From the NCBI GenBank assembly GCA_964409215.1, contig CAYPCL010000002.1:1-24886 (forward strand): DNA of 24,886 bases, in the 5' to 3' direction. The notes below the pieces were generated by a model. That model did no database searches. It had not been told where the DNA came from and saw only the letters and a program-made list of their open reading frames with translations. Source of the stretch: an uncultured Candidatus Saccharibacteria bacterium. Lineage in GTDB: Bacteria > Patescibacteriota > Minisyncoccia > Minisyncoccales > CG1-02-41-26. This document shows positions 1 through 24,863 of the stretch, piece after piece. Numbering within the stretch: the first letter of the stretch is position 1; each line of letters starts with the position of its first letter. The translations under genes and the position numbers were made by a program.

Positions 1-223
1 TCATAGCCGGAGAAACCTCTCCGGTAAAAGAACCTTCCCGCCAAAAGCAGTTTTGGGCTCCCAATTTAATATTCCTCCCGAGAGCTAAAGAATCCAAAAA
101 AGGAAAAGGGGGGCAAACAATGAATTTGCTCTTGGTTTTTTTATTTATCTTTTCCAAAAGCTTTTGAGCCTCTTTTTTGCTTGAAGGATTGCATTTCCAA
201 TTGGCAACTATAATTTTTTTCAT
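1..223 (-). CDS. tpiA: Triosephosphate isomerase, N-terminal part (runs off the window; not in the ORF track)
   Basis: Manual translation from ATG at 223: MKKIIVANWKCNPSSKKEAQKLLEK...VCPPFPFL...IKLGAQNCFWREGSFTGEVSPAM. It carries the TIM motifs ANWK, CPP, GAQN and FTGEVS. ATGA overlap with the upstream gene's stop. Confidence 0.95.
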   Translation of the reverse strand, partial: MKKIIVANWKCNPSSKKEAQKLLEKINKKTKSKFIVCPPFPFLDSLALGRNIKLGAQNCFWREGSFTGEVSPAM

Positions 224-666
224 ATGGTTAGAGTTAAAAAAGTTACTATTAAAGTGGCTATTAAAAGCCCCGACAAAATCAAGGGAAAGGACTGGCGAAA
301 TTTAATGCCGAAGAGAAAAGCGCAAATGGAAGCCGTCCAGCCTCCGGTCAGGGGCAAAGGAACAGCCACTAATAATATTAAAGCAAATTTATCCAGTTTT
401 TTAAACTTCTTTCGATGGCTCCGCTCCGTTTTGGCGAAAAGCCAGCCGAAGAATCTTTCAAAAAAAACAAATCTTTCCCTTAAGAATCGGGAAACGGGTT
501 CCAAAAAAAGAAGGAGAAAAAGAACGGGAATTAGATTGCCCAAGAGAGAGAAAAAAATACCCGACCAAAGAGGAAGATTGTAGCTTTTCAAAGCCAAGGG
601 AATAGCTCCTCTTAATTCCAAAACCGGACTCATAGCCACTAAAAGTATTTTAAGTTCTACTATCAT
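220..666 (-). CDS. Small multi-pass membrane protein, COG2426 / putative small multi-drug export family
   Basis: Hydrophobic 148 aa with the family-typical SPVLELRGAIP and VAVPLPLTGGWTASI motifs. Confidence 0.8.
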   Translation of the reverse strand: MIVELKILLVAMSPVLELRGAIPLALKSYNLPLWSGIFFSLLGNLIPVLFLLLFLEPVSRFLRERFVFFERFFGWLFAKTERSHRKKFKKLDKFALILLVAVPLPLTGGWTASICAFLFGIKFRQSFPLILSGLLIATLIVTFLTLTI

Positions 667-1670
667 GATTTTCTCAAATAGAGGGCTGCTTCCCGGGGCT
701 TGATAGTTGGAATTTCAATGCCCGCTCCCAGATCAAGTCCTCCAATTTGATAAGAAATTCGGGGAATTATTTCAAAATGCCAGTGATAATAGGAATAATT
801 TCCTCCGTCAGAAGGAGAAGTTCTCAGAAAAAAATTGTAATCGGGTTTTTTTAACCCTCTTCTCATTTTAGCCAAAACCTGAGAAAAGATTTCAGCCAAA
901 GACTCTTTATCTTTTATTTCCTCAAAATAGCTTAAATGACTTTTGGGGTAAATCCTAACTGTAAAAGGCATCCTGTAGGCAAAGGGGCAAAAAGCGATAA
1001 ATTTATCATTTTCCCAGACAATTCTTTCTTTTTCCTCTTTTTCCCAATTTATTATGGAGCAGTGAATGCATTCTTTTTTCTCCCGCCAGTATTTTTCCGA
1101 ACCTAAAAGATAATTTCTAACATCGGAGTCAATAACGGGAATACCGACAATTTGAGAATGAGGATGGGAGATAGTTGCTCCAGCTTTATTGCCGTGATTA
1201 TGGAAAATAAAGATATAGTTTACAACCTTTTCTTTTTTCAATTCCAAATATCTTTCCTGATAAGCGGAAAAAACCTCGACAATCTTATCAATCGAAAGCC
1301 GGGAGAAATCTTTGCGATGGCTTCTGGTTATCACTACCTCGTGAAAACCCACTCCTTCCAAGGAACGGTAAGGCCCCCTTTCTTTCTCACTTAAATCACC
1401 GGAAGGAAAAAGAGCCGGGTATTTGTTCGGTATAACCGCCAAGCTCCATTTCTTGGAATTGTTCTTAGGATAAGTTAAAACCGGCTTCTCCTGTCCCTCC
1501 AACTTGCAGAAAGGACAATACCTTTGAGGAAAAATCTTTTTCAGAAGGGATTCCCGGCCGTTCTTTTTAAAGCTCCTCGGCCTTTCTGACCGATTGGAAG
1601 CAATAATAACCCAATCCTTGCTAATGGGATCAAAGCGGAGCTGGGAGTATTTTTTCTTTTTTAGAGACAT
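663..1670 (-). CDS. galT: Galactose-1-phosphate uridylyltransferase (GalT)-family nucleotidyltransferase
   Basis: RFDPISKDWVIIASNRSERP, CPFC zinc motif, PNKYPAL, HEVVI and catalytic HPH in AGATISHPHSQI. Start placed at ATG 1670 because a TATAAT lies 7 nt upstream; the ORF track uses 1679. The real substrate is not determinable from sequence. Confidence 0.85.
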   Translation of the reverse strand: MSLKKKKYSQLRFDPISKDWVIIASNRSERPRSFKKNGRESLLKKIFPQRYCPFCKLEGQEKPVLTYPKNNSKKWSLAVIPNKYPALFPSGDLSEKERGPYRSLEGVGFHEVVITRSHRKDFSRLSIDKIVEVFSAYQERYLELKKEKVVNYIFIFHNHGNKAGATISHPHSQIVGIPVIDSDVRNYLLGSEKYWREKKECIHCSIINWEKEEKERIVWENDKFIAFCPFAYRMPFTVRIYPKSHLSYFEEIKDKESLAEIFSQVLAKMRRGLKKPDYNFFLRTSPSDGGNYSYYHWHFEIIPRISYQIGGLDLGAGIEIPTIKPREAALYLRKS

Positions 1671-1677
1671 TACTTTC

Positions 1678-1683
1678 ATTATA
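1678..1683 (-). promoter_or_regulatory. Possible -10 element for the galT-like gene (near-leaderless)
   Basis: TATAAT 7 nt before ATG 1670; no convincing -35 (TTTTCT at 17-nt spacing). Confidence 0.4.
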
Positions 1684-1694
1684 CTAAATTTTTG

Positions 1695-1808
1695 GGAGAA
1701 AGAAAAAACCTTGAGCGGAAGCTGGTGCTCAAGGCGTAAATTATTGTGCTTTTATTTTTCAGCGATTCTCGCATTACCTTGGAGCTTCCTACGAGAAACC
1801 GCCTCTCC
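1695..1808 (-). ncRNA. Candidate structured cis-regulatory RNA (two hairpins with complementary loops), family unknown
   Basis: Hairpin 1 at 1802-1762 (GCGGUUUCUCGUA / UGCGAGAAUCGC; its G-U pairs work only on the minus strand), 27-nt A-rich linker, terminator hairpin at 1734-1709. Loop GGAAGCU (1789-1783) is complementary to loop AGCUUCC (1723-1717). Confidence 0.6.
1703..1734 (-). terminator. Intrinsic terminator-like hairpin downstream of map
   Basis: Minus-strand RNA CCUUGAGC-ACCAGCUUCC-GCUCAAGG (perfect 8-bp stem) followed by UUUUUU. Confidence 0.8.
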
Positions 1809-1823
1809 TTTAAATTTATTAAA

Positions 1824-2582
1824 TTAATTCATCTTTGTCAAGACTTGAGGCCCTTTTTTGGTTACGGCAATCGTATCTTCAAAATGAGCCGAAAGGGATC
1901 CGTCCTTGGTTTCAATGCCAAAGCCGTCAGTCGAGTCCTTTATTTCCCAGCTCCCCATTGAGGCCATGGGTTCCAAACAAACAACCATGCCTTCTTTTAT
2001 CTTTTCCCCGCTATGCCTCTTGCCGTAGTTTAAAATCTGAGGTTCTTGATGAAGCTCCCGGCCTATTCCGTGGCCGCATAAATCGCGGATAACGCTAAAA
2101 CCCTGGGATTCAATAAATCTTTGAATGGTATTGCCGACATCGCCGAAGGTATTGCCGGGTTTTGCTTTTTTAATTCCCAATTTCAAAGATTTCTTAACAG
2201 CTTTAATCAGTCTCAAAGCTTCAAAATCAGTGAATTTTTCCCGGGAAATAGGAATAGTCAAAGCCATATCGCTGTAATATCCCTTATACTTAACTCCCAA
2301 ATCCAAAGATAAAATATCCCCCTCTTTCAATTTGTAATCAGAGGGAAGGCCGTGGACAATTTGGCTGTTTATTGAGGTACAAAGAGCAGCTGGAAATCCC
2401 TGATAATTTTTAAAAGCCGGCTCAGCCTTGGATTTTAAAATAAGGTCTTCAGCGACCTTGTTTAATTCTTTGGTGGAAATTCCAACTGCGGCCATTCTTT
2501 TAAGCTCTTTCATAACAGCTGAAAGAATAAAAGCTGCTTCCCGCATAGTATCCATTTCCTTTTTGGATTTCAAAGAAATCAT
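1824..2582 (-). CDS. map: Methionine aminopeptidase type I
   Basis: IVHGLP, LDLG, SDMA, CGHGIG, LEPM and HFEDT metal-site motifs; canonical position after adk. Confidence 0.97.
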   Translation of the reverse strand: MISLKSKKEMDTMREAAFILSAVMKELKRMAAVGISTKELNKVAEDLILKSKAEPAFKNYQGFPAALCTSINSQIVHGLPSDYKLKEGDILSLDLGVKYKGYYSDMALTIPISREKFTDFEALRLIKAVKKSLKLGIKKAKPGNTFGDVGNTIQRFIESQGFSVIRDLCGHGIGRELHQEPQILNYGKRHSGEKIKEGMVVCLEPMASMGSWEIKDSTDGFGIETKDGSLSAHFEDTIAVTKKGPQVLTKMN

Positions 2583-3238
2583 TTTAAAGCTTTTAAAATA
2601 TCATCAAAAACATCTTTAATCGGCTGTTCGCCGTCAATTTCTATCAATTTTCCTTTTTCCCGATAGTAGTCAATTACCTTGATAACTCTTTTATCAAAAA
2701 AATCAAGGCGGTTCTTTATGGAATTTGGATTATCATCCTCCCTGGCTACAAGTTCTCCTCCGCATTTATCACAAACCTTAAGCTTTTTAAAACCCTCAAC
2801 CCAGGGAATCAAACGACCGCATTTTTTGCAAATTCTTCTCTTAGTCAACCTTTCAAAAGCTTCTTTCCGGGAGATATCTATTAAAATTGGATGGAAATTT
2901 TTTTCTTTTCCCAGCCAAACCAAAAAACTATCCAGGACTTTAGCTTCTCCGATTCTCCGGGTTGCCCCGTCAAAAAGAATACCCTGGCCTTCCTTGATAT
3001 TGTAGGATATTTCATGAAGGAGCAGAGCTATTGCCAAATCATCAAAAGGCAAACCTCCTTCATCAATAATTTTGTTAATCTTTTTCCCCGCCAAGGTGTC
3101 TTTTTCGGCCAAATCCCGGAAAAGATCACCAGTGGAAAGATAAAACAAATTACCAAAATGCTCCATTAGAAGCTTGGCTTGAGTTCCCTTCCCGGAACCG
3201 GAACGGCCTATTAGATTGAGACTTATTGTTCCTGGCAT
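2579..3238 (-). CDS. adk: Adenylate kinase (zinc-lid type) with divergent NMP-site motifs
   Basis: P-loop GRSGSGKGTQ, STGDLFR, lid RRICKKC...CDKCGG, REDD, RL; located between secY and map. Confidence 0.9.
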   Translation of the reverse strand: MPGTISLNLIGRSGSGKGTQAKLLMEHFGNLFYLSTGDLFRDLAEKDTLAGKKINKIIDEGGLPFDDLAIALLLHEISYNIKEGQGILFDGATRRIGEAKVLDSFLVWLGKEKNFHPILIDISRKEAFERLTKRRICKKCGRLIPWVEGFKKLKVCDKCGGELVAREDDNPNSIKNRLDFFDKRVIKVIDYYREKGKLIEIDGEQPIKDVFDDILKALK

Positions 3239-3247
3239 CCTGATTGG

Positions 3248-3276
3248 ATTATAGAAGAAAAATTTATAATTTACAA
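3248..3276 (-). promoter_or_regulatory. Sigma70-type internal promoter for adk-map
   Basis: TTGTAA (3276-3271), 17 nt, TATAAT (3253-3248), 9 nt before the adk ATG. Confidence 0.7.
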
Positions 3277-3283
3277 GAATTTT

Positions 3284-4564
3284 TTAGAAATCCTCATACT
3301 CCCTCATCTCCATTTGGGACTTAATCTGCCTCCAGGTGTCCAGAACAACACTGACAACAATAAGAACGGCTGTTCCTCCGATTAAGAAGCCGAAGGAAGT
3401 TACCCCGGTTGTCCCCTGGATAATGGAAGGCATAACGGCTATTAAGCCTAAAGATAAAGCTCCGATAAAAAGGGTTCTATAGAGTATCTTATGAAGGAAT
3501 TGAGCGGTAGATTTGCCCGGCCTGATACCGGGAACGAATCCCCCCATTTTCTTAAGATTTTGGGAAATTGATTCCGGATCAAAGGTAACGGCGGTATAGA
3601 AATAAGTAAAGAGAAAAACCAAGCCGAAAAAGGATATTCCGTAAACCCAGCTATTTTGAAAGAAATTAGCCACCGATTTAACGGCTTGGGCAATAAAGGA
3701 ACCGCCTTCGGCAAAAAAGTTGGCTATCATATTGGGAAACATAAGAAGAGCCAAGGCAAAAATAATGGGAATAACTCCGGCCGGATTGATATTCATCGGC
3801 AGATAGGTGGAAACTCCCCCGTACATTTTGTTCCCCCTGACTCTCTTGGCGTAGGAAACGGGAATATTTCTCCGGGCTTGGGTTATCAAAACAACTCCGG
3901 CGATTATAAGGAGAGCGACTCCAAAAAAGAAAATATAGTTGGGAACCTGAGAAGGATCCCATTTGGCAATCATTGCTCCAATTTCCGAAGGAGTTCTGGC
4001 AATAATGCCGGCGAAAATAAGAAGAGAAACTCCATTGCCTATCCCCTTCTCCGATATTAATTCACCCAGCCACATTAAAAAGACGGAGCCGGCAGTTATG
4101 GTGACAATTCCTCCGGCCAGTTGAACAAAAGAAAGCTGGGGAACGGCCCCCTTGCTTTGAAGCAGAGCCAACATAGCGTAGGACTGAAGAATGGCAAAAG
4201 GGACGGTTAGAATTCTACCTATTTGATTGAATTTTCTCTTCCCTTCTTCACCTTCTTCCTTGTAAATCTTCTCCAACTTGGGGAAAATCATAGTTAAAAG
4301 CTGGAGGATAATAACACCGGTAATATAGGGGCCTAAACCCAGCATTACTATTGAAAGATTGCTCAAAGCTCCTCCAACAAATAAATTCAAGAGGCCTAAA
4401 AATTGATTGCCGCTGAAAATTTCCTTTAAACTTTCGCTGGCAATGGTGGGAATGGGAATATTGGCCGCCAGCCTGAAAACGGCAAAAATCGCCAGAACAA
4501 AGAGAATTTTATTCCGAAGCTGTTTGTCTTTAAATATTAAAATAATTTTATTAAGCCACTTCAT
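3284..4564 (-). CDS. secY: Preprotein translocase subunit SecY
   Basis: LGLGPYIT, LMWLGELISEKGIGNGVSLLIF, YLPMNINPAGVIPIIF, GGFVPGIRPG, GGTAVLIVV. Confidence 0.99.
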   Translation of the reverse strand: MKWLNKIILIFKDKQLRNKILFVLAIFAVFRLAANIPIPTIASESLKEIFSGNQFLGLLNLFVGGALSNLSIVMLGLGPYITGVIILQLLTMIFPKLEKIYKEEGEEGKRKFNQIGRILTVPFAILQSYAMLALLQSKGAVPQLSFVQLAGGIVTITAGSVFLMWLGELISEKGIGNGVSLLIFAGIIARTPSEIGAMIAKWDPSQVPNYIFFFGVALLIIAGVVLITQARRNIPVSYAKRVRGNKMYGGVSTYLPMNINPAGVIPIIFALALLMFPNMIANFFAEGGSFIAQAVKSVANFFQNSWVYGISFFGLVFLFTYFYTAVTFDPESISQNLKKMGGFVPGIRPGKSTAQFLHKILYRTLFIGALSLGLIAVMPSIIQGTTGVTSFGFLIGGTAVLIVVSVVLDTWRQIKSQMEMREYEDF

Positions 4565-13063: not shown

Positions 13064-13095
13064 GAAAAATCAGAGCCCGAGGGCTCTGGATTTTC
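13064..13095 (-). terminator. Terminator/attenuator-like hairpin between tuf and rpsJ
   Basis: CAGAGCC-CUCG-GGCUCUG followed by AUUUUUC on the minus strand. Confidence 0.7.
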
Positions 13096-14415: not shown

Positions 14416-14652
14416 TTAAAAAGGGAGGTCTTCTATTTTTAGTTCCTTTTGACCATTCTCTCTGTTCAGCTCCTCGTTAATCTCCTTGAAAGACTGAAAA
14501 CCGTTTTTTTTCTCCTCCAGACCGGGAAGTTCTTTCTGTTCTTCCTGGGACTGATTGTAATCTTCAAAGGAAACCAGAACAGCTACCGGCTTATCGTTCT
14601 CAACAATAATGTATTTCTCTCCTTTTTTTGGTTTAAATTTAAGAAAATTCAT
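14416..14652 (-). CDS. Small protein: Phd/YefM-like N-terminal segment, acidic linker, C-terminal IEDLPF
   Basis: KYIIVENDKPVAVLVSFEDY resembles the Phd/YefM core (xxITRNGKPVAVLxSxEDY). It has its own promoter and fits the fusA-tuf gap. Confidence 0.75.
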   Translation of the reverse strand: MNFLKFKPKKGEKYIIVENDKPVAVLVSFEDYNQSQEEQKELPGLEEKKNGFQSFKEINEELNRENGQKELKIEDLPF

Positions 14653-19189: not shown

Positions 19190-20335
19190 ATGCATATCAT
19201 CTGCCATTATGCCGAAATAGGCCTTAAAAAGGGCAAGAGGAGGTTTTTTGAAGAAAAACTGGTTGAGAATATCAAATCGACTTTAAAAGCGGAGTCTTTT
19301 AAGCAGGTTAAAAGAATCTCCGGCCGGATTATTATTGAATTTGAATCGGACATCTCTCCTTCTCAATGGGACAAAATTAGTGTCCTATTAAAAAATGTCT
19401 TTGGAATAAGCCATTTTTCCCTTGCTCAAAGCTTTCAGCCGGAAATAGAAGAAATTAAGAAAAAGGGATTGGAAATTTTAAAAGAAAAGGAATTTAAAAC
19501 CTTTAAAATTGAAACTCAGCGCTCCAATAAGAATTTTCCCCTCACTTCTCCGGAGATAAACCGGCAGATTGGAGAACATGTATTAAATAATCTTAAAAAG
19601 AAAGTGGATTTGGAAAATCCCGATTTAACTCTTTTCATAGAAATAGTTGATAATTATTCTTTTATTTATTCGGAAAAGATAAAAGGCCAAGGAGGTTTGC
19701 CGGTCGGCAGTTCGGGAAAAGCCCTCTGCCTCCTCTCCGGAGGAATTGACTCTCCCTTGGCCGCTTATTTGGCTATGAAAAGAGGGATTAAATTGGAGCT
19801 TATCCATCTTTACTTTGACAAATCTTCAATAAAGAAAGTCAAGGAAATAGCTAAAATCCTCAGTAAATTCCAAAAAAAGATAAAACTTCATTTGATTCCC
19901 TTCAAGGAGATTCAAGAAGAGATAGCCCGAAAACTTCCCTTGGAGACAAGATGCCTCCACTGTAAGAGAATGATGCTGAAAATTGCTCGGGAAATCGGAG
20001 AAAAGGAAGGGATTAAAACAATAATAACCGGGGAGAATATCGGCCAGGTTGCTTCCCAAACTTTGGCTAATTTAAGGACAATTGAATTAGGCAATGATTT
20101 TCTAATCTTAAGGCCCCTCTCTTGCTTTGATAAAAAAACAACCATAGAAAAAACCAAAGAAATAGGAAGTTATGAAAAATCAATTATTAAGGAACTCCCC
20201 TGCCCTATCGTTCCCGAGCATCCTGAAACAAAAAGCTCTCCTGAGAAAATAAGGAGAGAGGAGGAGAAAATAGACCGGGAAAAACTTGTTAAAAAAGCTT
20301 TGGCAGAATCTGAAGACCTCGTTATTATAAGTTAG
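19190..20335 (+). CDS. thiI: tRNA 4-thiouridine(8) synthase ThiI (NFLD-THUMP-PP-loop, no rhodanese domain)
   Basis: HYAEIGLKKGKRRFFE, THUMP TFKIETQRSNKNF...VDLENPD, GQGGLPVGSSGK, PP-loop LLSGGIDS, TGENIGQVASQT, LRPL. Confidence 0.96.
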   Translation: MHIICHYAEIGLKKGKRRFFEEKLVENIKSTLKAESFKQVKRISGRIIIEFESDISPSQWDKISVLLKNVFGISHFSLAQSFQPEIEEIKKKGLEILKEKEFKTFKIETQRSNKNFPLTSPEINRQIGEHVLNNLKKKVDLENPDLTLFIEIVDNYSFIYSEKIKGQGGLPVGSSGKALCLLSGGIDSPLAAYLAMKRGIKLELIHLYFDKSSIKKVKEIAKILSKFQKKIKLHLIPFKEIQEEIARKLPLETRCLHCKRMMLKIAREIGEKEGIKTIITGENIGQVASQTLANLRTIELGNDFLILRPLSCFDKKTTIEKTKEIGSYEKSIIKELPCPIVPEHPETKSSPEKIRREEEKIDREKLVKKALAESEDLVIIS

Positions 20336-20454
20336 AAATTGTCTCAGTACTGATTCTAAGTGGGTGTCCTCACGTTAAATCAAGTTGATTTAACAAATAT
20401 TGGACTCCCATTTTGAAGGTTTTGTACAGAATATTCTAACTTTAAACGGGGCCA
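20315..20454 (-). ncRNA. ssrS: Probable 6S RNA (compact, ~140 nt)
   Basis: Rod-shaped fold: GGCCCCGUU..AAGUUAGAA / UUCUAACUU..AACGAGGUC, then GUAC/GUAC, central bubble AAAACCUUCAA / AGAAUCA, AAUGGGAGUCC / GGACACCCACUU, and terminal GUUAAAUCA/UGAUUUAAC. A dedicated TTGACA/TATAAT promoter lies upstream. Ends are approximate. Confidence 0.7.
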
Positions 20455-20459
20455 CTTTC

Positions 20460-20489
20460 ATTATATACTCCTTTAAAATCACCTGTCAA
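20460..20489 (-). promoter_or_regulatory. Consensus sigma70 promoter driving the 6S-like RNA
   Basis: TTGACA (20489-20484, inside the last codons of the kinase gene), 18 nt, TATAAT (20465-20460); no ORF follows on this strand. Confidence 0.8.
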
Positions 20490-21549
20490 TCATTAAAACT
20501 TCCCCTAACTGTTTAATCAGGGAAATGACCACCGGCGGAGGCATTAAGCTGTAGCATTGCCTTCCCCGGTCATCTCTGATTTTCCAGGGTTTTTTTTCAG
20601 CTTTTATTTTTCCAAAATCATTAATCTTATAATTGTATTCCGGGGTAATTTCGTAATCATTGACATATTTCAAAGCTTTTTGAACGGGAACAACGTTATT
20701 AAGCATTACTTTGGGAACACCCGACAAGGATAAAACCTTCCTTATAATCTTTTCGTCTTTTTCCAATCTTGATTTAATATTGGCTATCCCCAATTCATCC
20801 CCTTCTTTCTTGACCATTCTCGCTCCTTGGCACCGGGGATTATCGCAAATCAAATAAAATTCCTTTTTTCTTTTATCATAGCCCACTTCTTTGGTCGGCA
20901 GAAGCTTGGTGCTCCGGGAAGTCTGGCACAAGGGGCAGATAACTCTATGTTTTATTCTTTCATTGATAACCGACTCCGGTATGTTTATAAGGACAAAAAC
21001 ATCGGGGTCTTCCCGATAACCTATCAAATCTCTGAAAAAGAGAGAGTAGGAAATTTGATCCATATCCCGGGGAAATCCATCTATAAAAAAAGATTTATCC
21101 TCTCCCCGATCGGCTATCTCCATTTTAACCAGGGCTAAAATCAATTCACTGGGAAGAAGGCTCTTGGTATTTCTCTTTTTAAAAGATTTTATTATTTCCT
21201 TCAGAGGGGTAAATCCCCTATAATTCTTTTCAAGAAAGGAAATGATTTTTTTCTTTTCCTTTCTCTTCTTCATTCTCTTTTCAATGTCCCTGACAATGTC
21301 ACCGACGGAAAGATGTTCTATTTTTTCAGGGTCGACTATTTCTTTGAACATTTTAGCGTAGGTTCCTTTGCCGGAATTCTTTTTGCCTATCATATAGGCG
21401 ATAAAACTATTCTTTTTCAGGTGTTCTCTTAATTTTTCTATTTCCTTCCCGGCTTTCAAATCAAAATAATCCCTTCTCTGGTTTGGATCGGTAAGATCAA
21501 ATTTTTTTGAGATATTATTCAACTTTGTTTTAAAAATTGGAAATTCCAT
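20479..21549 (-). CDS. Enlarged adenylate-kinase-like nucleoside monophosphate kinase (356 aa)
   Basis: P-loop GKKNSGKGT, SVGDIVR, LLPSE, FIDGFPR, Cys lid RVICPLC...ICDNPRC; long N- and C-terminal extensions. Confidence 0.85.
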   Translation of the reverse strand: MEFPIFKTKLNNISKKFDLTDPNQRRDYFDLKAGKEIEKLREHLKKNSFIAYMIGKKNSGKGTYAKMFKEIVDPEKIEHLSVGDIVRDIEKRMKKRKEKKKIISFLEKNYRGFTPLKEIIKSFKKRNTKSLLPSELILALVKMEIADRGEDKSFFIDGFPRDMDQISYSLFFRDLIGYREDPDVFVLINIPESVINERIKHRVICPLCQTSRSTKLLPTKEVGYDKRKKEFYLICDNPRCQGARMVKKEGDELGIANIKSRLEKDEKIIRKVLSLSGVPKVMLNNVVPVQKALKYVNDYEITPEYNYKINDFGKIKAEKKPWKIRDDRGRQCYSLMPPPVVISLIKQLGEVLMIDR

Positions 21550-23801: not shown

Positions 23802-24848
23802 TTATGACCTTTGAAGATAAACTGTCTGGGTGGGATAAGCAAAAACAATATCCTCTTTTTCAAATTTTTCTTTCAAAGCCAAGTTTATTCTTTCCTGGAT
23901 ATCCATATAGACATTGTAGTCGGAACTGTTAAGATAGTAAACAACTTCAAACTCCAAACTGAAATCGCCAAATTTCTTAAAGTGAACTCTGTCCAAATCA
24001 GCAAAATTAATTTCTTTTATAACATCGGAGACTATTTCCGAAACTTTTTTAATTTTTTCATTGGGAGTTTCATAAGCAATTCCAAAAGAAAATACTATTC
24101 TTCTTTTCTTCATCTTCTTATAGTTGTTAATCCTGCTAGAAGTTAATTCCTTGTTGGAAATAACCAGCTCTTCTCCTTGGAGAGTTTGGAGCCGAGTTGA
24201 TTTTATCCCTATTTTTTTAACCACTCCCATATCCTTGCCAATGATAATGAAATCCCCAATTTCAAAAGGACGATCAAAATAAATGGAAAAACTGGCGAAA
24301 ATATCACCTAAAATATTCTGGATGGCAAAAGCTATGGCAATTCCGCCAATTCCCAAACCGGCAACTAAAGTGGAAATGTTGTAACCTAAATTCTGAAGAA
24401 TTAAAATGACAGCAACCAGCCAGACAATAACTTTAATTATCTTAGTTGCTATTTTAACAAGATGAGGATCAAACTCCCCTCCTTTTCTTTTTTCAATTAC
24501 TTTTTGGGAACCGTAATCAATAAAAGAAGTAACCACTTTTATCAAATAGTAAGCCAAAACAGCCAAGAAAAGATAATAAATGATTTTATCGGCCAAGTTG
24601 GAAAGAACAATAAATCTGGAAGCTAAATAAAGAGGAAATATTAAATAGAAAAGAAAACCGACGCTTTCAATAACCGCTACTAAGGAACTATCAAAATCAT
24701 TCTTGGTCTTTTGAGTTAACTTTTTCAGCTTATTTATACCTACTGTTCGGAAAAATCTCAAAATCAAGAAAACAATAATAAAAACGCCTAAAGCAATTAG
24801 ATATTCCTTGATTGAATTTCCGGCCAAATTAAAAGTTAGAAAATCCAT
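23802..24848 (-). CDS. mscS: Small-conductance mechanosensitive channel family protein
   Basis: AGLGIGGIAIAFAIQNILGDIFAS, DRPFEIGD, IGIKST, NYKKMKKRR, FGDFSL, IVFAYPT. Confidence 0.95.
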   Translation of the reverse strand: MDFLTFNLAGNSIKEYLIALGVFIIVFLILRFFRTVGINKLKKLTQKTKNDFDSSLVAVIESVGFLFYLIFPLYLASRFIVLSNLADKIIYYLFLAVLAYYLIKVVTSFIDYGSQKVIEKRKGGEFDPHLVKIATKIIKVIVWLVAVILILQNLGYNISTLVAGLGIGGIAIAFAIQNILGDIFASFSIYFDRPFEIGDFIIIGKDMGVVKKIGIKSTRLQTLQGEELVISNKELTSSRINNYKKMKKRRIVFSFGIAYETPNEKIKKVSEIVSDVIKEINFADLDRVHFKKFGDFSLEFEVVYYLNSSDYNVYMDIQERINLALKEKFEKEDIVFAYPTQTVYLQRS

Positions 24849-24854
24849 ATTTTT

Positions 24855-24863
24855 ATTATAGCA
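24855..24863 (-). promoter_or_regulatory. Extended -10 promoter for the mscS cluster (leaderless geometry)
   Basis: TGCTATAAT, 6 nt before ATG 24848. Confidence 0.65.

What the first reader, a model, noticed from the sequence alone, without database searches (positions are those of the whole stretch)
1695..1808. Candidate riboswitch-like RNA: loop 1 can either kiss the terminator loop or invade the terminator stem
Seen on the minus strand, 5' to 3': hairpin 1 (GCGGUUUCUCGUA / UGCGAGAAUCGC) with a 16-nt loop GGAAGCUCCAAGGUAA, a 27-nt A-rich linker, then terminator CCUUGAGC-ACCAGCUUCC-GCUCAAGG-UUUUUU. Loop-1 GGAAGCU is a perfect 7-bp complement of terminator-loop AGCUUCC. Loop-1 GCUCCAAGG copies the terminator 3' arm GCUCAAGG with one extra C, so it could instead pair with the 5' arm CCUUGAGC. 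The two pairings share GCU and are mutually exclusive. GGAGAG (1808-1803) and UUCUCC (1700-1695) could close the whole element. G-U pairs become A-C mismatches on the plus strand, which fixes the orientation. Known: a hairpin whose loop kisses a terminator loop is the guanidine-IV riboswitch architecture, but I cannot confirm a sequence match to that or any other class. Inference: a switch controlling read-through from adk-map into galT-COG2426-tpiA. Caveat: a possible galT -10 lies downstream of the terminator, so this could instead be a 3'-end stabilising structure or a free sRNA.
Basis: partly seen in the sequence, partly recalled or inferred. Interest (0 to 1): 0.85.

Follow-up and report, generated by a model that had tools for sequence, protein, structure and literature searches.

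The report
Structured terminator region after map gene
The stretch between the map and galT-like genes of this Patescibacteria (CPR) contig carries a real hairpin followed by a real transcription terminator whose loops could pair, but it exists in only two sequence versions and nothing shows it is a ligand-sensing switch, so it is best read as the operon's terminator with a lineage-specific extra hairpin.

Summary
The sequence description is correct. On the minus strand there is a 13-bp hairpin (1803-1761, 16-nt loop), a 26-nt A-rich linker, then an 8-bp terminator with a 10-nt loop and U6 (1734-1703). The two loops share a perfect 7-nt complement (chance about 0.003 for these loops). The minus strand folds better than the plus strand. 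No Rfam family matches, guanidine-IV included.

Only one other sequence version exists (L082, identical in L177; Map 92% identical). More than 150 further relatives have a plain terminator or a gene right after map. In L082 all 5 stem substitutions keep pairing (p about 0.04) and the 7-nt kiss is unchanged, so there is no covariation. The proposed stem-invading segment CCAAGG is lost (GAAACGA), which removes one state of the proposed switch.

galT has its own conserved TATAAT positioned for a leaderless mRNA. The linker looks long enough for the kiss and the full terminator to coexist, unlike guanidine-IV.

Best reading (about 0.5): the intrinsic terminator ending the ribosomal-protein/secY/adk/map unit, plus a lineage-specific 3'-UTR hairpin. 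Rivals: a small RNA of about 100 nt (0.2) and a riboswitch-like attenuator (0.12). It is a lead, not a discovery.

The parts
1824..2582 (-). map (type I methionyl aminopeptidase), last gene of the ...secY-adk-map unit; stop codon TAA at 1826-1824
   Evidence: ORF list, translation, Pfam PF00557 at E = 3.8e-52
1813..1841 (-). Promoter-like site TTGACA (1841-1836), 17 nt, TAAATT (1818-1813). It overlaps the end of map and would start an RNA near 1806.
   Evidence: Consensus scan gives 10/12 matches, and the site is identical in L082/L177. The evidence is weak: TTGAC[AT] hexamers are common in coding DNA here, and promoter-like hits are only modestly enriched (30 found against 19.5 expected).
1804..1808 (-). 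GGAGA, 5' arm of a possible closing helix with UCUCC (1699-1695). It could only form in read-through transcripts.
   Evidence: MFE structure and RNAalifold; 5 invariant pairs
1761..1803 (-). Hairpin 1: 13 bp with U1796 bulged (5' arm 1803-1790, 3' arm 1773-1761), -15.8 kcal/mol
   Evidence: Folding. Four one-sided substitutions in L082 (G1803A, C1801U, U1791C, A1769G) all keep a standard pair. Probability by chance is about 0.09.
1774..1789 (-). Loop 1, GGAAGCUCCAAGGUAA. The 5' part GGAAGCUCC (1789-1781) is conserved. The 3' part AAGGUAA (1780-1774) differs at 5 of 7 positions in L082 (GAAACGA).
   Evidence: Alignments. RNAalifold alternatively pairs GGA/UCC as a 3-bp apical extension.
1783..1789 (-). 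GGAAGCU, the loop-1 half of the 7-bp loop-loop (kissing) complement
   Evidence: Inverted repeat I5. Duplex energy is -11.7 kcal/mol in the window and -10.2 in L082. Chance is about 0.003.
1735..1760 (-). A-rich single-stranded linker. Its core AAAAGCACAAUAAUUUACG (1753-1735) is 19/19 identical in L082. The 5' part has one substitution (G1760A) and a 3-nt deletion.
   Evidence: Alignment. Mean probability of being unpaired is 0.92. No complementary site elsewhere in the window.
1703..1734 (-). Intrinsic terminator: 8-bp stem (5 G-C pairs) 1734-1727 / 1716-1709, 10-nt loop ACCAGCUUCC (1726-1717), U6 tract 1708-1703; -13.3 kcal/mol
   Evidence: Inverted repeat I3, custom terminator scan, folding. 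31/33 positions are identical in L082, and C1727U keeps pairing.
1717..1723 (-). AGCUUCC, the terminator-loop half of the kissing complement
   Evidence: I5. Unpaired probability is 1.0 in the window. In L082 the last C is drawn into an extra G-C stem pair.
1695..1700 (-). UUCUCC, 3' arm of the possible closing helix. It lies downstream of the U-tract.
1668..1683 (-). galT promoter -10 TATAAT (1683-1678), then 7 nt, then ATG (1670-1668): a leaderless-type arrangement downstream of the terminator
   Evidence: Sequence. adk and the ORF ending at 24848 show the same TATAAT-N6-9-ATG layout. The exact 12-mer TATAATGAAAGT recurs behind a perfect TTGACA at 20454-20489. Conserved in L082/L177. Gene callers start the protein at this ATG (335 aa).
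663..1670 (-). galT-like HIT-family hexose-1-phosphate uridylyltransferase gene, followed by a PF06695 membrane-protein gene (220-666)
   Evidence: Pfam PF01087, PF16285, PF01230 and PF06695; gene order in L177

Best explanation
The element is the 3' end of the long ribosomal-protein/secY/adk/map transcription unit of a Patescibacteria (CPR) genome.

Its second hairpin plus U6 is an ordinary Rho-independent terminator. It stops transcription before the separately promoted, apparently leaderless galT-like gene. The first hairpin is a lineage-specific addition between the map stop codon and the terminator. It makes the mRNA tail a compact, stable structure of about 100 nt.

The 7-nt complement between the two loops can probably form. 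The net gain is roughly -6 to -10 kcal/mol after opening costs, before any kissing-loop penalty. The 23-26-nt linker looks long enough to span hairpin 1, the kissing helix and the fully formed terminator. A kiss would therefore compact or stabilise the terminated 3' end rather than prevent termination. No ligand sensing is involved.

Shown here: the structures, the strand, the pairing-preserving substitutions, the absence from other relatives, and galT's own promoter motif. Inferred: terminator function, 3'-end stabilisation, the steric argument, and the absence of a switch.
For: - Terminator anatomy is canonical apart from its large loop: 8-bp stem with 5 G-C pairs, U6, -13.3 kcal/mol.
- It sits at the end of a co-directional gene string.
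- Relatives often place a simple terminator and then a TATAAT promoter right after map. Under a strict definition 22 of 152 loci have one, mostly less than 40 nt from the stop codon with 3-5-nt loops. The terminator's position is therefore expected, and hairpin 1 is the novelty.
- galT has its own TATAAT-N7-ATG, and the same 12-mer occurs at another promoter in the window.
- Hairpin 1 and the terminator are kept in L082/L177 through 5 of 5 pairing-preserving substitutions.
- Minus-strand folding gives z = -2.2 to -2.7, against -0.7 for the plus strand.
- The invading segment of loop 1 is not conserved.
- No Rfam family matches.
- Neither a covariance model nor DNA patterns found any homolog beyond one genus-level lineage.
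Against: - A plain terminator model does not explain perfect conservation of the 20 nt after the map stop (1823-1804) and of the 19-nt linker core (1753-1735). Four-fold degenerate sites are only 74% identical between the two genomes. Those segments look constrained, as in an sRNA or a cis-regulatory RNA.
- A 10-nt terminator loop with 9 of 10 positions conserved is unusual. The guanidine-IV discoverers used exactly this kind of hint.
- The 7-nt complement has a chance probability of about 0.003.
- Evidence that hairpin 1 is under selection is weak (p about 0.09 alone, about 0.04 with the terminator).
- Nothing here measures termination or RNA stability.
Confidence: 0.5

Rival explanations
1. 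It is a separate small RNA of about 100 nt, or a 3'UTR-derived sRNA with an internal promoter. It would be transcribed from TTGACA-17-TAAATT overlapping the end of map, start near 1806 and end at the same terminator. The 5' hairpin would protect it, and the conserved single-stranded linker AAAAGCACAAUAAUUUACG would be the seed that pairs with targets elsewhere in the genome.
For: - Promoter-like site with a perfect -35 and 17-nt spacing. The -10 and start region is 20/20 identical in L082/L177, while neutral sites are 74% identical.
- The layout is typical of sRNAs: 5' hairpin, then an unpaired conserved linker (19/19 identical, probability unpaired 0.92), then a terminator.
- The stems vary while the single strands are conserved.
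Against: - TTGAC[AT] hexamers are frequent in coding DNA here, and the -10 matches only 4 of 6 positions.
- No target site exists within the 25-kb window.
- No homologs exist outside one lineage.
- No expression data are available.
Confidence: 0.2
2. It is a riboswitch-like or otherwise regulated attenuator with a split aptamer, in the manner of guanidine-IV. A ligand or factor would modulate the loop-1/terminator-loop interaction and so set read-through into the galT-like, PF06695 and tpiA genes.
For: - The outline is the same as the mepA motif: a P1 hairpin loop complementary to a conserved terminator loop.
- The 7-nt complement has a chance probability of about 0.003 and is retained in L082.
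- The terminator loop is unusually large and conserved.
- In the window, loop 1 can sequester 6 nt of the terminator 5' arm as well, at -14.5 kcal/mol.
- The linker and loop halves are conserved while the stems vary.
Against: - No Rfam hit.
- No covariation in the kiss.
- The invading segment is lost in L082.
- The linker of 23-26 nt should allow the kiss and the full terminator together, removing the steric logic of guanidine-IV (inference).
- galT has its own promoter downstream of the terminator.
- The downstream genes are not those of any known riboswitch regulon.
- Only two sequence versions exist.
- RNAalifold offers a simpler reason for conservation of GGAAGCUCC, namely a 3-bp apical stem.
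Confidence: 0.12
3. Only the terminator is functional. Hairpin 1 and the loop complement would be evolutionary debris, for example a decayed inverted partial copy of the terminator, or an insertion into a promoter module.
For: - Loop 1 reads like the reverse complement of the terminator's 5' flank, arm and loop with gaps (GGAAGCU-C-CAAGG-UAA against UUA-CG-CCUUG-...-AGCUUCC).
- Hairpin 1 evolves at a near-neutral rate, 34/43 identical against 74% at 4-fold sites.
- The exact motifs TTTAAAGGAG and TATAATGAAAGT are adjacent at 20454-20477 but lie about 120 nt apart here, flanking the element.
- Direct repeat D1 and inverted repeat I1 flank the element.
- Relatives lack the hairpin.
Against: All 4 stem substitutions in hairpin 1 keep pairing. 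The flanking repeats are AT-rich and short, so they may be chance or shared promoter features (24 of 100 shuffles do as well).
Confidence: 0.13
4. The region encodes a small protein: ATG 1774 to TAA 1679, 31 aa, MRESLKNKSTIIYALSTSFRSRFFLSPKNLV.
For: The frame is open in both versions. The 3-nt indel is in frame, and 4 of 6 substitutions are synonymous (manual count, p about 0.07).
Against: - The start codon lies inside the hairpin-1 stem, with no conserved ribosome-binding context.
- The frame runs through the terminator, so terminated transcripts would lack a stop codon.
- A 1-nt deletion changes the C-terminus in L082.
- No Pfam match.
- The same substitutions are explained by G-U wobble changes in the stems.
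Confidence: 0.03

Closest known systems
Rho-independent (intrinsic) transcription terminators at operon ends, with structured 3' UTRs
   Same: G+C-rich 8-bp stem followed directly by U6. It lies at the end of a co-directional operon, just upstream of the next gene's promoter. Relatives carry simple terminators at the same place.
   Different: The loop is 10 nt rather than the usual 3-5 nt and is conserved. An extra 13-bp hairpin lies 26 nt upstream, and its loop is complementary to the terminator loop.
Guanidine-IV riboswitch (mepA motif)
   Same: A P1 hairpin, a single-stranded linker and an intrinsic terminator, with pairing (P2) between the P1 loop and the terminator loop (bioRxiv 10.1101/2020.10.21.349134).
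   Different: - No match to the Rfam model.
- The linker is long rather than limiting.
- The loop pairing shows no covariation, because only two versions exist.
- The downstream genes are galT-like and PF06695, not guanidine exporters or carboxylases.
- The phylum (Patescibacteria) is outside the six phyla reported for the motif.
- The element follows a coding gene by 16-20 nt rather than sitting in a dedicated 5' UTR.
HMP-PP (thiS) riboswitch and cobalamin riboswitches that contact the expression-platform hairpin
   Same: Regulatory information is placed in, or contacts, the loop or stem of the terminator or expression-platform hairpin (PMC6478431 and PMC10653944 as listed; the mechanisms are from general knowledge).
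   Different: No sequence or model match. No conserved aptamer core can be defined from two sequences.
3'UTR-derived bacterial sRNAs with an internal promoter (type I, for example DapZ-like; from general knowledge)
   Same: The promoter-like site lies inside the end of the upstream CDS. The terminator is shared with the mRNA. A conserved unpaired stretch lies between a 5' hairpin and the terminator.
   Different: The promoter is unproven, no target is identified, and no chaperone context is known for this lineage.

Membership tests
Guanidine-IV riboswitch (mepA motif) | Significant match to the family covariance model (conserved loop nucleotides plus P1 and terminator) | tested here: not met
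   Rfam 15 cmscan gave nothing at gathering thresholds. At E <= 10 on positions 1600-1900 the list holds 12 matches to other families (best E = 0.55), all far below their gathering scores, and the mepA motif is not among them.
Guanidine-IV riboswitch (mepA motif) | P1 hairpin loop base-pairs with the terminator loop (P2) | tested here: met
   A perfect 7-bp complement, 1789-1783 with 1723-1717, is present in both versions. It is invariant, so covariation does not support it.
Guanidine-IV riboswitch (mepA motif) | Linker too short for P2 and the full-length terminator to coexist (the basis of the ON switch) | tested here: not met
   The linker is 26 nt in the window and 23 nt in L082. By a simple length estimate it can span 13 + 7 + 8 stacked base pairs. 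This is an inference, not a structural measurement. The feature is as described.
Guanidine-IV riboswitch (mepA motif) | Association with guanidine-related genes (mepA/MATE, sugE/Gdx, carboxylases) | tested here: not met
   The downstream genes are a galT-like HIT-family transferase, a PF06695 (DedA-related) membrane protein and tpiA.
Guanidine-IV riboswitch (mepA motif) | Selective guanidine binding and guanidine-dependent anti-termination | not testable with these tools
   This needs in-line probing and transcription assays.
Intrinsic (Rho-independent) terminator | G+C-rich stem-loop directly followed by a U-tract on the transcribed strand | tested here: met
   8-bp stem with 5 G-C pairs, U6, -13.3 kcal/mol. 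The standard scan missed it only because its loop limit is 8 nt.
Intrinsic (Rho-independent) terminator | Placement at the end of a transcription unit, conserved by position in relatives | tested here: met
   It follows the last gene of the secY-adk-map string. 22 of 152 relatives have a strict terminator within 220 nt of the map stop, and examples are visible.
Intrinsic (Rho-independent) terminator | Measured transcript 3' ends at the U-tract | not testable with these tools
   No transcriptome data are available.
Trans-acting sRNA (3'UTR-derived, own promoter) | Functional promoter giving a discrete 5' end | tested here: inconclusive
   TTGACA-17-TAAATT matches 10 of 12 positions and is conserved, but such hexamers are common in coding DNA here.
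Trans-acting sRNA (3'UTR-derived, own promoter) | Conserved unpaired seed with complementary targets | tested here: inconclusive
   The linker core is 19/19 conserved and unpaired. No complementary site exists in the 25-kb window. The rest of the genome is not available.
Purine-riboswitch-like three-way junction with L2-L3 kiss / bacterial SRP RNA (both considered because of the closing helix and the GGAAGC..CCAAGG string) | Match to the Rfam models | tested here: not met
   No hit at E <= 10.

The most novel reading that the evidence does not exclude
A new, very narrowly distributed cis-regulatory RNA of Patescibacteria. It would use a split, terminator-loop-embedded sensor: the hairpin-1 loop kisses the terminator loop, with the conserved linker contributing to the sensor. 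It would tune termination at the end of the ribosomal-protein operon and thereby read-through into the sugar-nucleotide (galT-like), membrane (PF06695) and glycolysis (tpiA) genes. That would make it a second, unrelated instance of the guanidine-IV/HMP-PP design principle.
Probability: 0.1. Interest if true: 0.75.

Novelty: new member of a known kind. Interest (0 to 1): 0.3.

Why it matters
As read here, it is an ordinary operon-end terminator with a lineage-specific decoration. It is useful mainly for annotating where the ribosomal-protein super-operon ends in this CPR lineage, and for showing that galT is separately, probably leaderlessly, expressed.

It would matter more if the loop-loop contact proved to be functional. 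Terminator-loop-embedded sensors are thought to be under-discovered, because terminators are filtered out of ncRNA screens. Almost nothing is known about RNA-based regulation in Patescibacteria.

With only two sequence versions the case cannot be made computationally. The element is small enough for a quick in vitro test.

Tried and rejected
- Rfam at gathering thresholds over the whole window found only two tRNAs. At E <= 10 on 1600-1900 there was only noise, such as Spd-sr07, SIB and snoRNAs.
- blastn-short and nhmmer of the element against 81 loci found only the identical Logan contig L081.
- Covariance model R1 was built from window plus L082. It was searched over the window, 161 map loci, 13 viral loci and 2 pattern hits. 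Nothing beyond noise appeared. L129 (E = 0.13) lies in a reverse ORF and has no similar structure.
- DNA pattern scans. Both loops in GTDB representatives gave 0 hits. The same pattern in IMG/VR gave 13 hits, none matching the model. The linker 20-mer in GTDB gave 2 chance hits, in a Clostridiales and a Methylobacter contig, with no hairpin or terminator.
- Protein-anchored searches for closer relatives. Map and GalT yielded only L082 and L177, which have identical intergenic regions. A search with the N-terminal GalT fragment returned almost nothing and was wasted.
- SRP RNA idea. GGAAGCUCCAAGG resembles GGAAGCAGCCAAGG of 4.5S RNA from memory. It was rejected because there is no 5' partner strand and no Rfam hit.
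- Shine-Dalgarno plus small ORF after AAAGGAG. Rejected because the window has GCG where L082 has GUG, plus an in-frame stop. The genome also shows little SD usage.
- The 31-aa ORF from ATG 1774 is kept only as a 3% rival.
- An alternative nested antiterminator, GAGGCG (1805-1800) pairing with CGCCUU (1736-1731), appears in nascent-transcript folds. It is broken by an A-C mismatch in L082.
- Screen of 152 relatives for an analogous hairpin-plus-kiss after map: none found.
- PF06695 as a hint to an efflux or riboswitch regulon. The literature places it in the DedA superfamily with no riboswitch link.

Full report
**What is there.** All coordinates below are on the minus strand. The map stop codon is at 1826-1824. 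After it come, in order:
- an AU-rich 16 nt;
- GGAGAG (1808-1803);
- hairpin 1 (5' arm 1803-1790, loop GGAAGCUCCAAGGUAA 1789-1774, 3' arm 1773-1761; 13 pairs with U1796 bulged);
- an A-rich linker (1760-1735);
- a terminator (CCUUGAGC 1734-1727, loop ACCAGCUUCC 1726-1717, GCUCAAGG 1716-1709, U6 1708-1703);
- CUUUCUCC;
- TATAAT (1683-1678) and the galT-like ORF.

The repeat finder reports the terminator arms and the 7-nt complement GGAAGCU/AGCUUCC independently (I3 and I5). RNAfold returns both hairpins and the GGAGA/UCUCC closing helix (-35.8 kcal/mol, z = -2.68). Without the flanks the two hairpins remain (z = -2.18). The plus strand folds no better than shuffles (z = -0.73).

A complement of 7 nt or more between two loops of these sizes and composition arises in about 0.3% of shuffles. 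This is notable but post hoc.

**Context.** The contig is from a Patescibacteria/Parcubacteria (CPR) genome: the closest public records are such MAGs. The minus strand carries a ribosomal-protein string ending in secY (3284-4564), adk (2579-3238) and map (1824-2582). Next come the element, a galT-like HIT-family uridylyltransferase (663-1670/1679), a PF06695 membrane protein (220-666) and, in the sister genome, tpiA.

The genome shows little Shine-Dalgarno usage. Several genes have TATAAT 6-9 nt before the ATG: galT, adk and the ORF ending at 24848. galT therefore probably has its own promoter giving a leaderless mRNA. The exact 12-mer TATAATGAAAGT recurs behind a perfect TTGACA (18-nt spacer) at 20454-20489. 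This promoter lies downstream of the terminator.

**Known families.** Rfam 15 finds only two tRNAs in the window at gathering thresholds. At E <= 10 on 1600-1900 it finds only noise. The mepA (guanidine-IV) motif, purine, SRP and other models do not match.

**Homologs.** Searches were anchored on Map in GTDB representatives, in JGI metagenomes and in the 5.8-billion-protein set, and on GalT. They gave one close relative, L082 (Map 92% identical), and a second assembly of it, L177, whose intergenic region is identical. L081 is identical to the window. The next relatives are at most 68% identical in Map.

In those more distant relatives, sequence search finds nothing. So does a covariance model built from the two versions (the best hit, L129, is a reverse ORF). 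DNA pattern scans of GTDB representatives and IMG/VR gave nothing real.

In relatives, map is followed directly by a simple terminator and a TATAAT promoter, or by the next gene. Of 152 loci, 22 have a strict terminator within 220 nt, mostly less than 40 nt from the stop codon with 3-5-nt loops. None has an upstream hairpin whose loop matches the terminator loop. The terminator's position is thus expected. Hairpin 1 and the kiss are specific to one genus-level lineage.

**What the one comparison says.** The window and L082 are 74% identical at four-fold degenerate sites (375/507) but 90% identical in the map-galT spacer (126/140). The changes are clustered:

| Segment | Identity or change |
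|---|---|
| Hairpin 1 (43 nt) | 9 changes |
| 20 nt after the stop codon | 20/20 identical |
| Linker core | 19/19 identical |
| Terminator | 31/33 identical |

All four substitutions in the hairpin-1 stem (G1803A, C1801U, U1791C, A1769G) and the one in the terminator stem (C1727U) convert between G-U and A-U or G-C pairs. Every cell stays paired, and there is no double-sided change. Transitions make up 90% of the differences, so 5 of 5 compatible changes has a probability of about 0.04, and hairpin 1 alone about 0.09. This is suggestive, not proof.

Loop 1 splits into a conserved 5' part, GGAAGCUCC, and a 3' part with 5 transitions in 7 nt (AAGGUAA to GAAACGA). The terminator loop changes only A1726G, which in L082 adds a G-C pair and shortens the loop to 8 nt.

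**Consequences for the proposed switch.**
- The kiss survives in both versions, at -11.7 and -10.2 kcal/mol for the loop duplex. Opening costs are 1.9 and 3.7 kcal/mol. It is invariant, so it carries no covariation.
- RNAalifold offers a simpler reason for conservation of the loop-1 5' part: GGA/UCC forms a 3-bp apical extension, and the variable 7 nt becomes a bulge.
- The invasion of the terminator 5' arm by loop-1 CCAAGG is strong in the window (-9.2 kcal/mol alone, -14.5 combined with the kiss). It is essentially absent in L082 (-3.5).
- In guanidine-IV the linker is too short for P2 and the full terminator to coexist, and that is what makes it a switch. Here the linker is 23-26 nt. By a simple length estimate it spans 13 + 7 + 8 stacked pairs, so a kiss need not interfere with termination (inference).
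- galT does not depend on read-through for a promoter.

**Best explanation (about 0.5).** This is the intrinsic terminator that ends the ribosomal-protein/secY/adk/map unit and insulates the galT promoter. It is preceded by a lineage-specific hairpin, which gives the mRNA a compact 3' tail. The loop complement may add a tertiary clamp. No ligand switch is involved.

**What this does not explain.** The strong conservation of the post-stop 20 nt and of the unpaired linker is not accounted for. That keeps two rivals alive:
- a small RNA of about 100 nt from the TTGACA-17-TAAATT site overlapping the map stop. Such hexamers are common in coding DNA here. Probability 0.2.
- a riboswitch-like attenuator. 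Probability 0.12.

Two further rivals are weaker. Hairpin 1 may be neutral debris or an insertion: the flanking repeats D1 and I1, and the motifs TTTAAAGGAG and TATAATGAAAGT, which are adjacent at 20454-20477 but split here. Probability 0.13. The 31-aa ORF from ATG 1774 runs through the terminator and is unlikely. Probability 0.03.

**Novelty and score.** The element belongs to no described RNA family and is confined to two sequence versions. As a terminator with an extra hairpin it is a new member of a known kind. The most novel reading that cannot be excluded is a terminator-loop-embedded sensor in CPR bacteria, at about 10% probability. Interest is 0.3: a cheaply testable lead, not a finding.

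Noticed in passing
window 20336-20489 (minus strand): A strong promoter, TTGACA-18-TATAAT, overlaps the stop codon of ORF 20479-21549. It shares the exact 12-mer TATAATGAAAGT and the exact 10-mer TTTAAAGGAG with the map-galT spacer. The 140-nt region downstream lies between convergent genes and folds into a long hairpin (-32.4 kcal/mol, z = -3.07). It has no Rfam match. It could be an sRNA or an antisense RNA to the 3' end of gene 19190-20335.
   Followed up: partly
window 1668-1683, 3236-3253, 24846-24860 (minus strand): TATAAT lies 6-9 nt before the ATG of galT, adk and the ORF ending at 24848. Most genes lack a Shine-Dalgarno sequence upstream. The genome appears to use leaderless mRNAs and SD-independent initiation widely.
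   Followed up: partly
window 14416-14652 (minus strand): A 78-aa ORF with a Phd/YefM antitoxin domain (PF02604, E = 4.8e-07, just at the cut-off) sits between fusA and tuf inside the str operon. No toxin partner is visible. A TTGACT-17-TATATT promoter for tuf follows it.
   Followed up: partly
window 13071-13088 (minus strand): A terminator- or attenuator-like hairpin, CAGAGCC-cucg-GGCUCUG followed by AUUUUU, lies between tuf and rpsJ. It is the only other intergenic terminator-like site on the coding strand in the window, and it has a normal 4-nt loop.
   Followed up: no
window 1774-1780 compared with L082 3303-3309: Five transitions occur within 7 nt of the loop-1 3' half. This is faster than four-fold degenerate sites (26% differences; p about 0.015 by hand). 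All five changes either remove or create complementarity to the terminator 5' arm and its flank. The direction of change is unknown because there is no outgroup.
   Followed up: partly
window 1673-1690 and 1808-1825; 1682-1699 and 1804-1821: Direct repeat D1 (AATTTAGTATAATGAAAG and AATTTAATAAATTTAAAG, 78% identical) and inverted repeat I1 (18 nt, 78% complementary) bracket the element. This would fit an insertion or a duplicated promoter -10 region, but a pattern search shows such AT-rich matches are not rare.
   Followed up: partly
window 1-2582; loci L001-L161: The usual infA-rpmJ-rpsM-rpsK-rpsD-rpoA genes do not follow map in this lineage. In relatives the genes after map vary: a GT2 glycosyltransferase, galT or tpiA. 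In L019 galT follows map by 4 nt. This junction is therefore a recombination-prone operon boundary.
   Followed up: no
window 220-666 (minus strand): The gene after galT is PF06695, labelled 'putative small multi-drug export protein' (E = 1.4e-34). The literature places this family in the DedA/VTT superfamily rather than among drug exporters.
   Followed up: partly
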